Positions 9,001 to 12,000 of a stretch of DNA of 23,307 bases are shown piece after piece. Source of the DNA: Escherichia coli. Lineage in GTDB: Bacteria; Pseudomonadota; Gammaproteobacteria; Enterobacterales; Enterobacteriaceae. The first letter of the stretch is position 1, and the number at the start of each line of letters is the position of its first letter. The position numbers were made by a program. The DNA is taken from the NCBI RefSeq assembly GCF_003334255.1, contig NZ_QOWU01000066.1; one strand, written 5' to 3'.

Positions 9001-12000
9001 ATAGGGCTGATAGCGATCGTCCTGTGGAGCACGATGGTAGGATTGATTCGCGGTGTCAGTGAGGGGCTCGGCCCGGTCGGCGGCGCAGCTGCTATCTATT
9101 CATTAAGCGGGCTGCTGTTAATCTTCACGGTTGGATTTCCGCGTATTCGGCAAATCCCGAAAGGCTATTTACTCGCCGGGAGTCTGTTATTCGTCAGCTA
9201 TGAAATCTGTCTGGCGCTTTCCTTAGGGTATGCGGCGACCCATCATCAGGCGATTGAAGTGGGTATGGTGAACTATCTGTGGCCCAGCCTGACAATTCTC
9301 TTTGCCATTCTGTTTAATGGTCAGAAAACCAACTGGTTGATTGTACCTGGATTATTATTAGCCCTCGTCGGCGTCTGTTGGGTGTTAGGCGGTGACAATG
9401 GGTTACATTATGATGAAATCATCAATAATATCACCACCAGCCCATTGAGTTATTTCCTGGCGTTCATTGGTGCGTTTATCTGGGCAGCCTATTGCACAGT
9501 AACGAATAAATACGCACGCGGATTTAATGGAATTACCGTTTTTGTCCTGCTAACGGGAGCAAGTCTGTGGGTTTACTATTTTCTTACGCCACAACCAGAA
9601 ATGATATTTAGCACGCCCGTCATGATTAAACTCATCTCTGCGGCATTTACCTTAGGATTTGCTTATGCTGCATGGAATGTCGGTATATTGCATGGCAATG
9701 TCACCATTATGGCGGTAGGTTCGTATTTTACGCCTGTACTTTCCTCAGCGCTTGCAGCCGTGCTGCTCAGCGCCCCGCTGTCGTTCTCGTTCTGGCAAGG
9801 CGCGCTGATGGTCTGCGGCGGTTCCCTGCTCTGCTGGCTGGCGACACGTCGTGGTTAAAATAACTGCCGGGTCTACGGCCCGGTAGTTAATCAGATAAAT
9901 TCCGACAATATTAAAAAAATAAATTTCAAATACCAGTAATTCACCTTATATCTCATTTCGACTTCGATCACATATCGATAAATAATATTATTTCATCTAT
10001 TTTTCTCATTGTTTTTAATCACCATTCTATTTTAAAAACAGTATGTCATTTATAAATGACGCCGTTTAAAATTCGTTTAGAAAATACGTTTAACGATAAT
10101 TAAAAGGATTCTGTTAAATGAAATTAAAAATAGTTGCGGTGGTTGTAACTGGTTTGTTAGCTGCGAACGTAGCACACGCTGCCGAAGTCTATAACAAGGA
10201 TGGTAATAAACTCGACCTTTATGGCAAGGTTACCGCTCTACGTTATTTTACTGATGATAAGCGTGACGATGGTGATAAAACTTATGCCCGTCTCGGCTTT
10301 AAAGGAGAAACGCAAATCAATGATCAAATGATTGGTTTTGGTCACTGGGAATATGATTTTAAAGGCTATAACGATGAAGCCAACGGCTCGCGCGGCAAGA
10401 ATCTCTGATTGAGTTAAGTGCCCATCACAATATGATCACTGACCTTATATTACACAATCATCCCAGGATGAAAACAATCACTTTAAACGACAACCATATT
10501 GCACATTTAAACGCCAAAAACACTACAAAACTGGAATATTTAAACTTAAGCAATAACAATTTACTGCCAACCAATGACATTGATCAACTAATATCATCAA
10601 AACATCTTTGGCATGTATTAGTTAACGGCATCAACAATGATCCACTTGCACAAATGCAGTACTGGACTGCAGTAAGAAATATAATTGATGACACTAATGA
10701 AGTGACCATTGATTTATCAGGACTTAATTTAACCACTCAACCACCAGGGCTGCAAAACTTCACATCTATCAATCTTGATAATAACCAACTCACACATTTT
10801 GATGCAACCAACTACGATAGACTCGTAAAGCTAAGTCTGAATAGTAATGCTCTTGAGTCAATAAATTTTCCTCAAGGCAGAAATGTAAGTATTACACATA
10901 TATCTATGAATAATAATGCTCTCAGAAATATTGATATAGATAGGCTTTCATCAGTTACTTATTTTAGTGCGGCACATAATCAACTAGAGTTTGTGCAATT
11001 AGAATCTTGCGAATGGCTGCAATACCTGAATCTCAGCCATAATCAATTAACTGATATTGTTGCAGGTAATAAAAATGAACTCTTACTGCTGGATCTATCC
11101 CATAATAAACTAACAAGTTTACACAATGACTTATTTCCCAACTTGAATACGTTACTTATTAACAACAATTTGCTTTCTGAAATTAAAATATTCTATAGCA
11201 ACTTCTGCAATGTTCAGACATTAAACGCTGCTAACAACCAGTTGAAATATATAAATCTTGATTTCCTGACTTATCTTCCATCTATCAAAAGTTTAAGACT
11301 GGACAATAATAAAATAACCCACATTGATACTAATAATACATCCGATATTGGAACTTTATTCCCCATAATAAAACAGAGCAAAACTTAAATTTTTTAAATG
11401 TTTCTGGGAAGAACAATTGCCCTACTATGCAGCTCATGTTATTTAATTTGTTTTCCCCAGCACTTAAGCTTAATACTGGCCTGGCAATTCTTTCGCCTGG
11501 TGCATTTGAAGTTCACTCTGACGGAATAGATGTGGATAACGAATTGTTTCACTATCCTATTAAAAAAGCATATACCCCATATAATATACACACTTACAAG
11601 ACAGAGGAAGTTGTAAACCAGAGGAATATAAAAGTTAAAAACATGACCTTAGATGAAATAAACAATACTTACTGTAATAACGATTATTACAATCAGGCAA
11701 TAAGAGAGGAACCGATAGACCTTCTGGACAGATCGTTTTCCTCCAGTTCATGGCCTTTTTAGTGAATAAATCATCACTAATTCTATAAGTGTCTGGTCTT
11801 GTTGATAATATAGTTAATATGTAACCCTTTAGATTCACGATCTGAAGGGTTGAAACATGACATACGTTCAAAGATTAACCCCGTTTGAAGGTTAGCTTGT
11901 TAGTTACATTTAGTAACACATATCTGGCTACTTAATCCCCATTCTGCCCCCGCGGTTACGCTTTCTTATCTATTCTTTCAATCAGCACTTCACCCAATTC

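What the first reader, a model, noticed from the sequence alone, without database searches (positions are those of the whole stretch)
10045..10060. Perfect 16-bp palindrome upstream of the porin fragment
GTCATTTATAAATGAC is an exact inverted repeat about 58 nt upstream of yddL, the size and symmetry of a dimeric regulator operator. It does not match the CRP, Fur, FNR or LexA consensus sequences I know. It may mark the control site of the ancestral porin gene or of the acquired islet.
Basis: seen in the sequence. Interest (0 to 1): 0.3.

Follow-up and report, generated by a model that had tools for sequence, protein, structure and literature searches.

The report
Porin mRNA 5′-end hairpin, not operator
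The perfect 16-bp palindrome is real, but it most likely encodes a small hairpin at the very start of an old porin gene's messenger RNA and is not a regulator docking site; in this strain the porin gene is broken, so it is an ordinary leftover.

Summary
GTCATTTATAAATGAC is at 10045-10060, exact and single-copy in the window, 57 nt before the yddL ATG. This is the E. coli K-12 fdnG-yddG-yddL region; yddL is the truncated remnant of the Salmonella ompD-type porin gene.

A perfect palindrome of 16 bp or more appears in 38% of whole-window shuffles and 2.3% of shuffles of the AT-rich intergenic region alone.

The palindrome is not conserved. Only the left arm (GYCATT) is kept across Enterobacteriaceae; the right arm is Escherichia-specific and polymorphic within E. 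coli.

The left arm's first base aligns with the mapped Salmonella ompD transcription start (-69; two dRNA-seq datasets). The 16-mer is therefore probably +1..+16 of the transcript, forming GUCAUU-UAUA-AAUGAC.

Nucleotide 1 is paired in 35 of 37 orthologous leaders, but the partner lies at nt 16, 31-32 or 41-43 depending on lineage. Escherichia lacks the distal partner.

Best reading (about 0.5): a 5'-terminal stem-loop of the ompA/papA kind, now a relic in K-12.

Weak points: the E. coli start site is inferred, the hairpin is weak (-3.3 kcal/mol), and there are no compensatory double changes.

The operator reading is not supported: no conservation, no known consensus match and no nearby regulator gene.

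The parts
10045..10060 (+). The 16-bp perfect palindrome. It is read as the first 16 nt of the yddL/ompD-type porin transcript, forming the hairpin GUCAUU-UAUA-AAUGAC.
   Evidence: sequence; alignment to the mapped Salmonella TSS; folding.
10045..10045 (+). Inferred transcription start (+1). It is the G orthologous to the Salmonella ompD TSS. It has not been mapped in E. coli.
   Evidence: The Salmonella 5' UTR runs from -69 to the AUG (PMC3333887). dRNA-seq places the TSS at 1611957, with a promoter string ending ...AAAAATAGTCTG (PMC3293720 and PMC3963941 supplements). That G is column 116 of alignment A2, which is window position 10045.
10045..10050 (+). 5' arm GTCATT. This is the conserved half, G[C/T]C[A/G]TT in all 37 orthologous leaders.
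10055..10060 (+). 3' arm AATGAC. It is specific to Escherichia and polymorphic: AATGGC in O157 and E. albertii gives a U.G pair in RNA.
10009..10014 (+). Inferred -35 hexamer TTGTTT, orthologous to Salmonella TTGAAC. The ATTG core is invariant in seven species.
   Evidence: alignment; Salmonella promoter string classed as sigma70 with -10 and -35.
10033..10038 (+). Inferred -10 hexamer TAAAAA. It has an 18-nt spacer and ends 7 nt before 10045. It is orthologous to Salmonella TAAAAA.
10045..10117 (+). Inferred 73-nt 5' untranslated leader of yddL, with the Shine-Dalgarno AAGGA at 10104-10108.
10118..10408 (+). yddL, the 96-codon N-terminal remnant of the ompD-type porin. It is intact (366 aa) at the same position in 1,118 of 5,426 E. 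coli genomes.

Best explanation
The palindrome is the DNA image of a 5'-terminal RNA stem-loop. Transcription of the ancestral ompD-type porin gene (yddL in K-12) starts at G10045, from a sigma70 promoter with -35 TTGTTT at 10009-10014 and -10 TAAAAA at 10033-10038. The first 16 nt of the mRNA therefore fold as GUCAUU-UAUA-AAUGAC, leaving no unpaired 5' nucleotide. In Salmonella, Citrobacter, Enterobacter and Lelliottia the same conserved 5' heptamer (GCCAUUG) pairs with a distal CAAUGGY 25-40 nt downstream. Escherichia lacks about 10 nt containing that distal arm and has an adjacent complement instead. The likely function is to sequester the triphosphorylated 5' end from RppH and from the 5'-end-dependent entry of RNase E, which would lengthen the porin mRNA's lifetime as in ompA and papA. 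In K-12 the coding region is truncated, so the element is a relic. What is shown: the sequence, synteny, alignment, the Salmonella TSS, and the predicted pairing across orthologues. What is inferred: that E. coli starts at the same base, that the hairpin forms in vivo, and that it stabilises the mRNA.
For: 1. fdnG-yddG-porin synteny holds in 42 loci.
2. The Salmonella ompD TSS comes from two independent sources: -69 (PMC3333887) and dRNA-seq position 1611957. It aligns exactly to 10045, and the -35 and -10 elements are conserved.
3. In minimum-free-energy folds of the first 48 nt, nt 1 is paired in 35 of 37 distinct leaders and nt 1-6 are all paired in 33 of 37. The partner of nt 1 is at nt 16 in Escherichia, 31-32 in Salmonella and Citrobacter, and 41-43 in Enterobacter and Lelliottia.
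4. By chance, nt 1-6 are fully paired in only 1.7-6.3% of leaders in which the rest is shuffled, yet at least two independent architectures achieve it.
5. All substitutions within the stems are wobble-compatible: C-G to U.G, A-U to G.U, U-A to U.G, and G-C to G.U. The O157 and E. albertii change A15 to G breaks the DNA symmetry but keeps a U.G pair in RNA.
6. All 12 sampled intact-porin loci keep the stem, and all 5 stem-breaking cases seen are in pseudogene backgrounds.
7. The authors of PMC3333887 note a 'tight secondary structure' in the ompD 5' UTR.
8. The mechanism rests on published work: RppH and RNase E need single-stranded 5' termini, which explains stabilisation by 5' structures (PMC3997798).
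Against: - The TSS has not been mapped in E. coli. No usable entry was found in the held supplements.
- The E. coli -10 reads TAAAAAC where Salmonella has TAAAAAT.
- The hairpin alone is weak, at -3.3 kcal/mol, compared with -10 to -18 kcal/mol for the 5' structures in other genera.
- In a 130-nt context the hairpin holds only about 40-50% of the ensemble. It competes with pairing of nt 2-8 to UAAAUGA at the start codon.
- The whole K-12 leader is not unusually stable (z = -1.15).
- No double compensatory change occurs in the terminal stem, so classical covariation support is absent and the sequence could be conserved for another reason.
- The link between allele and gene state is not significant. 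With about 14.5% broken alleles overall, seeing none in 11 intact samples has p of about 0.18, and three of the pseudogene samples were chosen by allele.
Confidence: 0.5

Rival explanations
1. It is a chance palindrome in AT-rich promoter DNA with no function of its own. The left arm is conserved because it is the initial transcribed sequence of the ompD promoter, and the right arm happens to be complementary in Escherichia. In K-12 it sits upstream of a dead gene.
For: 38% of window shuffles contain a perfect palindrome of 16 bp or more, and a second 14-bp perfect palindrome lies 52 nt away. The hairpin is thermodynamically weak and the whole leader is unremarkable. There is no compensatory covariation. 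The site is polymorphic in E. coli: 590 genomes with T5 to C, 27 with the double change, and 274 with A15 to G.
Against: Within the 259-bp spacer the chance is only 2.3%. Given the fixed 5' hexamer, a complement that pairs all six bases arises in about 2% of shuffled leaders. It appears in exactly the lineage that lost the ancestral distal partner. E. albertii, whose leader otherwise differs at 13 of 57 positions, keeps the stem, with changes only in the loop and one wobble. All 12 sampled intact-porin loci keep it.
Confidence: 0.3
2. This is the first reader's hypothesis: a DNA operator for a dimeric transcription factor that binds over +1..+16 and represses the porin promoter by occlusion, as lacO does.
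For: It has perfect dyad symmetry of operator size. It overlaps the inferred start site, which is a classic repressor position. E. albertii's central AT to GC change preserves the dyad. The identical 16-mer sits inside longer inverted repeats next to TetR-family genes and a RelE/ParE toxin gene in unrelated GC-rich metagenome contigs, so proteins that read this sequence probably exist somewhere.
Against: The right half-site is absent in all 34 non-Escherichia orthologous promoters. O157 and E. albertii break the dyad at position 15, and at least 617 E. coli genomes break it elsewhere. No regulator gene lies among fdnG, yddG, yddL, yddK, yddJ and narU. There is no convincing match to 23 regulator consensus sequences taken from memory, the best being about 55-60% of specified positions. 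The K-12 flanks lack the extra TGACC/GGTCA motifs that accompany the 16-mer at the TetR-linked sites. No second E. coli context appeared among 129 metagenome and viral hits.
Confidence: 0.12
3. The left arm is the -35 hexamer of a different promoter, ATGTCA (10043-10048), 18 nt, TAAAAT (10067-10072). Transcription would start near 10080 and the palindrome would not be transcribed.
For: The consensus promoter scan lists this pair with 9 of 12 matches.
Against: The scan found 4 such sites in 400 nt against 1.4 expected, so specificity is low. The orthologous Salmonella sequence (CTGCCA, 17 nt, TAACAA) lacks the -10 T at the last position. Two dRNA-seq studies report the primary TSS at the upstream G, not about 35 nt downstream.
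Confidence: 0.05

Closest known systems
ompA 5'-terminal stem-loop (hp1), and the papA 5' stem-loop, mRNA stabilisers of E. coli (Emory, Bouvet and Belasco 1992; Arnold et al. 1998; Bricker and Belasco 1999; as cited in PMC3997798)
   Same: It is a stem that begins at or next to nucleotide +1 of an outer-membrane-protein mRNA leader and leaves no single-stranded 5' end for RppH or RNase E. It lies in a long leader upstream of a strong Shine-Dalgarno sequence.
   Different: There is no sequence similarity. The E. coli yddL version is short and AU-rich (6 bp, -3.3 kcal/mol). Stabilisation has not been measured for ompD or yddL. In K-12 the downstream gene is truncated.
Salmonella ompD 5' UTR (-69 to AUG), described as having 'tight secondary structure' (PMC3333887)
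   Same: It is the orthologous locus, with the same promoter and the same first bases (G[C/U]CAUU). The 5' end is paired from nt 1.
   Different: In Salmonella the 5' heptamer pairs with CAAUGGU at nt 25-31 and encloses an inner hairpin (-10.5 kcal/mol). In Escherichia that distal arm is missing and the partner is the adjacent AAUGAC or AAUGGC.
Palindromic repressor operators that overlap the transcription start (for example lacO1), and TetR-family autoregulatory operators
   Same: A 16-bp perfect dyad overlapping +1. The same 16-mer occurs at TetR-family gene starts in unrelated metagenome contigs (L121, L197).
   Different: Here there is no cognate regulator gene, no conservation of the second half-site in orthologous promoters, and none of the flanking auxiliary half-sites seen at the TetR-linked copies.

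Membership tests
5'-terminal stem-loop mRNA stabiliser (ompA hp1 / papA type) | The stem starts at the transcript's 5' end, with at most about 1-2 unpaired 5' nucleotides. | tested here: inconclusive
   This is met if the E. coli TSS equals the orthologous Salmonella TSS. The E. coli TSS itself was not found in any held dataset.
5'-terminal stem-loop mRNA stabiliser (ompA hp1 / papA type) | A thermodynamically credible hairpin forms in the native leader. | tested here: inconclusive
   The hairpin is in the MFE and centroid fold of the 76-nt leader. Alone it is only -3.3 kcal/mol, and it holds about 40-50% of the ensemble in a 130-nt context. Nt 2-6 are paired with P>0.86 in either competing fold.
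5'-terminal stem-loop mRNA stabiliser (ompA hp1 / papA type) | Pairing of the 5' end is conserved in orthologues. | tested here: met
   Nt 1 is paired in 35 of 37 leaders and nt 1-6 in 33 of 37, using three different partner positions. The chance rate is 1.7-6.3% per leader. Only wobble-compatible changes occur and there are no double compensatory ones.
5'-terminal stem-loop mRNA stabiliser (ompA hp1 / papA type) | Removing or unpairing the stem shortens mRNA half-life in an RppH- or RNase E-dependent way. | not testable with these tools
   This needs rifampicin-chase half-life measurements or PABLO assays on stem mutants.
Operator of a dimeric transcription factor | Dyad-symmetric site of about 14-20 bp. 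| tested here: met
   A 16-bp perfect inverted repeat.
Operator of a dimeric transcription factor | Both half-sites are conserved at the same position in orthologous promoters. | tested here: not met
   The right half-site is absent in all 34 non-Escherichia orthologues. The site is polymorphic within E. coli.
Operator of a dimeric transcription factor | A match to a known regulator's consensus, or a cognate regulator encoded nearby. | tested here: not met
   No transcription-factor gene is in the neighbourhood. Twenty-three consensus strings score at most about 60% of specified positions. The strings are from memory, so this is only a lead.
Operator of a dimeric transcription factor | Further copies elsewhere in the same genome (a regulon). 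| tested here: inconclusive
   The 30-mer around the site is single-copy in 2,607 genomes. Of 129 metagenome and viral loci with the exact 16-mer, 8 are this E. coli locus and none is another recognisable E. coli context. Degenerate copies in a whole E. coli genome could not be searched.
Intrinsic (Rho-independent) terminator | A G+C-rich stem followed by a T-run. | tested here: not met
   The stem has 2 G-C pairs out of 6 and no T-run follows. The scan does not list it.
Dispersed repeat (REP, MITE or IS end) | Many copies with shared flanks. | tested here: not met
   It is single-copy in the window. Groups of metagenome hits share whole 316-nt flanks, meaning the same organism was resampled, with no common element across groups.

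The most novel reading that the evidence does not exclude
Selection to keep the 5' end of ompD-type porin mRNAs base-paired is strong enough that, when the Escherichia lineage lost the ancestral distal arm through a deletion of about 10 nt, a new local complement evolved next to the conserved 5' heptamer. This would be compensation at the level of RNA architecture and not of single base pairs. The K-12 'perfect palindrome' would be its by-product, further tightened by a G15 to A change.
Probability: 0.4. Interest if true: 0.4.

Novelty: new member of a known kind. Interest (0 to 1): 0.25.

Why it matters
If the reading is right, it adds the ompD/yddL porin leader to the small set of enterobacterial mRNAs whose 5'-terminal pairing controls decay. 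It also gives a natural example of one 5' arm being re-partnered in different genera, which is directly testable with stem and compensatory mutants in an intact-porin E. coli or in Salmonella. It is a caution for genome scanning as well: a perfect DNA palindrome just upstream of a gene can be the image of a transcript-initial RNA hairpin and need not be a protein-binding site. For K-12 itself the practical importance is low, because yddL is a pseudogene.

Tried and rejected
- E. coli TSS data: Thomason 2015 is not held. The Kim 2012 supplements have no yddL or yddG entry. The Ettwiller 2016 TSS file is truncated well before this locus. The Romero 2014 supplement has no entry. The EDL933 Cappable-seq supplements list only an internal TSS at 2028453 and nothing near the predicted 2028261, but those files are also truncated. 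The E. coli TSS therefore stays inferred.
- Rfam: there is no family at or near the site, and the best E-values are 4-10.
- Known regulator consensus sequences (CRP, FNR, Fur, LexA, ArcA, TyrR, PhoB, NsrR, RutR, ArgR, PurR, SlmA, MetJ, TrpR, GalR, LacI, CytR, NagC, Mlc, FadR, AcrR, IscR, OxyR), with strings from memory: none matches convincingly.
- Terminator: not listed by the scan.
- Dispersed repeat or mobile-element end: rejected.
- Whole-leader stability: z = -1.15, not significant.
- Classical covariation: there are no double compensatory changes in the terminal stem.
- Association of stem-breaking alleles with the pseudogene state: the direction is suggestive, but the sampling was partly biased and p is about 0.18.
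- Alternative promoter ATGTCA-18-TAAAAT: rejected on the Salmonella dRNA-seq data and the poor orthologous -10.
One paper search failed on syntax.

Full report
**Observation**

The window is the E. coli K-12 region fdnG(-) / yddG(+) / yddL(+) / yddK / yddJ / narU. GTCATTTATAAATGAC lies at 10045-10060, exactly as reported. It is a perfect 16-bp inverted repeat whose symmetry stops at the flanks. It is single-copy in the window even with 3 mismatches allowed, and it ends 57 nt before the yddL ATG at 10118.

Its statistical weight is small.
- 378 of 1000 dinucleotide-preserving shuffles of the whole window contain a perfect palindrome of at least 16 bp.
- Restricted to the 259-bp, 27%-GC yddG-yddL spacer, the figure is 2.3%.
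- The same spacer holds a second perfect palindrome of 14 bp at 9980-9993.

**What the locus is**

yddL is the 96-codon N-terminal remnant of a porin.
- 1,118 of 5,426 complete E. coli genomes have a full-length 366-aa porin at the same place. PGAP calls it 'OmpC'.
- The arrangement fdnG / yddG / porin is conserved in E. albertii, Salmonella enterica and S. bongori, many Citrobacter, Enterobacter and Lelliottia. It was found in 42 loci.
- In Salmonella this gene is ompD.

**Conservation test**

I aligned the 130 nt upstream of the porin ATG from 37 distinct sequences.
- Only the left arm is conserved, as G[C/T]C[A/G]TT.
- Outside Escherichia the site reads GCCATTGA[C/T]... and is never palindromic.
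- The right arm AAATGAC is confined to Escherichia.

The site is also polymorphic within E. coli. Counts are from exact 30-mer searches.

| Allele | Genomes |
|---|---|
| GTCATTTATAAATGAC (perfect) | 2,607 |
| GTCACTTATAAATGAC | 590 |
| GTCATTTATAAATGGC (O157 type) | 274 |
| ATAATTTATAAATGAC | 27 |

About 4,256 genomes have this promoter at all.

**Position relative to transcription**

- Fröhlich et al. (PMC3333887) give the Salmonella ompD 5' UTR as -69 to the AUG and remark on its 'tight secondary structure'.
- Two independent dRNA-seq supplements (PMC3293720, PMC3963941) list the primary sigma70 TSS of ompD at SL1344 position 1611957. The promoter string is ...TTATTGAACTTATGCCACTCCGTCATTTAAAAATAGTCTG, and its last G is +1.
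- That G is -69 in my Salmonella locus and falls in the same alignment column as window position 10045, the first base of the palindrome.
- The -35 (ATTG core) and -10 (TAAAAA) elements are conserved in E. coli at 10009-10014 and 10033-10038.
- I could not find a mapped TSS for E. coli itself. This step is an inference from orthology.

**RNA reading**

If transcription starts at 10045, the palindrome is nt 1-16 of the mRNA and folds as GUCAUU-UAUA-AAUGAC, leaving no unpaired 5' nucleotide.

In minimum-free-energy folds of the first 48 nt of all 37 orthologous leaders, nt 1 is paired in 35 and nt 1-6 are all paired in 33. The partner of nt 1 differs by lineage.

| Lineage | Partner of nt 1 |
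|---|---|
| Escherichia | nt 16 |
| Salmonella, Citrobacter | nt 31-32 |
| Enterobacter, Lelliottia | nt 41-43 |

Further points:
- In the non-Escherichia genera the partner is a conserved CAAUGGY. Relative to Enterobacter and Lelliottia, Escherichia lacks about 10 nt that contain this arm.
- Keeping the 5' hexamer and shuffling the rest of each leader gives full pairing of nt 1-6 in only 1.7-6.3% of cases.
- Substitutions within the stems are all wobble-compatible, and there are no double compensatory changes.
- The O157 and E. albertii A15 to G change destroys the DNA dyad but keeps a U.G pair.
- E. albertii differs from K-12 at 13 of 57 other leader positions. Within the hairpin it differs only in the loop and at that wobble.

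**Mechanism**

RppH and the 5'-sensor pathway of RNase E both require a single-stranded 5' terminus. This is the accepted explanation for mRNA stabilisation by 5'-terminal stem-loops in ompA and papA (PMC3997798). I therefore propose that the element protects the porin mRNA's 5' end. In K-12 the gene is truncated and the element is a relic.

The sampled alleles are consistent with that, but do not prove it.
- All 12 sampled intact-porin loci keep the stem: 10 are perfect and 2 have the U.G pair.
- All five stem-breaking cases lie upstream of the pseudogene.
- Three of those five were chosen by allele.
- With about 14.5% broken alleles overall, seeing none in 11 intact samples has p of about 0.18.

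**Weaknesses**

- The hairpin alone is only -3.3 kcal/mol.
- In a 130-nt context it holds about 40-50% of the ensemble. It competes with pairing of nt 2-8 (UCAUUUA) to UAAAUGA at the start codon. Nt 2-6 are paired with P>0.86 in either fold.
- The whole leader is not unusually stable (z = -1.15).
- There is no classical covariation in the terminal stem.

**Rival explanations**

- A functionless chance palindrome remains quite possible (about 0.3).
- A transcription-factor operator is disfavoured (about 0.12).
  - There is no conservation of the second half-site and no regulator gene nearby.
  - There is no match to 23 consensus strings taken from memory, and no second E. coli context among 129 exact hits in metagenomes and viral contigs.
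  - In some GC-rich metagenome contigs the identical 16-mer is embedded in longer inverted repeats with TGACC/GGTCA motifs, right at the start of TetR-family genes (L121, L197) or a RelE/ParE toxin gene (L211). The sequence can therefore plausibly serve as an operator elsewhere, but the K-12 copy lacks those flanking motifs and any such gene.
  - An Escherichia-specific operator overlapping +1 (lacO-like) is not strictly excluded.
- The scan-predicted promoter ATGTCA-18-TAAAAT is contradicted by the Salmonella TSS data.

**Verdict**

The operator interpretation is not supported. The best-supported reading is a 5'-terminal mRNA hairpin of a known kind, specific to Escherichia in its architecture and vestigial in K-12. 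Interest is modest.

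Noticed in passing
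L121:4875-4890, L197:3702-3717, L107:830-845, L181:7875-7890, L124:1424-1439, L094:3070-3085, L211:1925-1940: The identical AT-rich 16-mer occurs in GC-rich (55-72%) metagenome contigs inside longer inverted repeats with extra TGACC/GGTCA motifs. In L121 and L197 a TetR-family gene (41% identical to each other) starts 3-10 nt from it. In L211 it overlaps the start of a RelE/ParE toxin gene. In L124 and L181 a cytochrome-P450-like gene is adjacent. It looks like a real autoregulatory operator in unrelated bacteria.
   Followed up: partly
window 10046-10052 versus 10115-10121: The 5' end of the inferred transcript (UCAUUUA) is complementary to UAAAUGA spanning the yddL start codon, which is the same heptamer as the palindrome's right arm at 10053-10059. 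In a 130-nt fold this long-range pairing competes with the local hairpin. It would occlude the AUG, and it is specific to Escherichia.
   Followed up: partly
window 10063-10068 and 10074-10079: A direct repeat CGTTTA-N5-CGTTTA with 11-bp phasing lies immediately downstream of the palindrome and is partly conserved in all orthologues (Salmonella CGTTTA...GGTTGA). The phasing resembles ArcA direct-repeat boxes (from memory). ArcA is reported to repress Salmonella ompD directly (PMC3358236), but the same bases also form the RNA stems.
   Followed up: no
window 9966-9972: GATCACA is invariant in the seven species first aligned. It resembles a CRP right half-site (TCACA) centred about -80.5 relative to the inferred start. 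The left half (TTCGA) is poor.
   Followed up: no
window 9975-9993: A second perfect palindrome, AAATAATATTATTT (9980-9993), overlaps TCGATAAATA (9975-9984), which is 9 of 10 identical to the H-NS high-affinity motif TCGATAAATT as I recall it.
   Followed up: no
window 9867-9883: A G+C-rich hairpin, CCGGGTCTACGGCCCGG, lies 9 nt after the yddG stop codon. The scan scores it as a terminator only on the minus strand, where the T-run is, even though yddG is on the plus strand.
   Followed up: no
window about 9943 onward; hits H24-H29; loci L008, L010, L011: About 1,150 E. coli genomes match only as far as about 85 nt past the yddG stop, and they lack the porin promoter, yddL and the LRR genes altogether. 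This makes a third structural state of the locus besides 'intact porin' and 'truncated porin plus LRR islet'.
   Followed up: partly
L002:3418-4518; NZ_CP008957.1:2028334-2029434: The intact E. coli porin at this locus is annotated 'ompC: porin OmpC' by PGAP and 'phosphoporin PhoE' in the 2017 EDL933 annotation. By synteny with yddG it is the orthologue of Salmonella ompD, so the name is probably wrong.
   Followed up: no
NZ_CP008957.1:2028453 (L233 position 154): The EDL933 Cappable-seq supplement (PMC10469882) lists a sense TSS 119 nt inside the porin coding region, in one growth condition.
   Followed up: no
L003 about 3462 (Salmonella SL1344 1611582): Salmonella has a second, upstream ompD TSS 375 nt before the primary one. 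It is classed as sigma38-type and lies in an intergenic region twice as long as in E. coli (523 against 259 bp). E. coli lacks that segment.
   Followed up: no
window 10056-10103: The palindrome's right arm contains an ATG (10056-10058) that opens a 15-codon upstream ORF ending at TAA 10101-10103. It has no Shine-Dalgarno sequence and lies only 11 nt from the inferred 5' end, so it is probably not translated.
   Followed up: no
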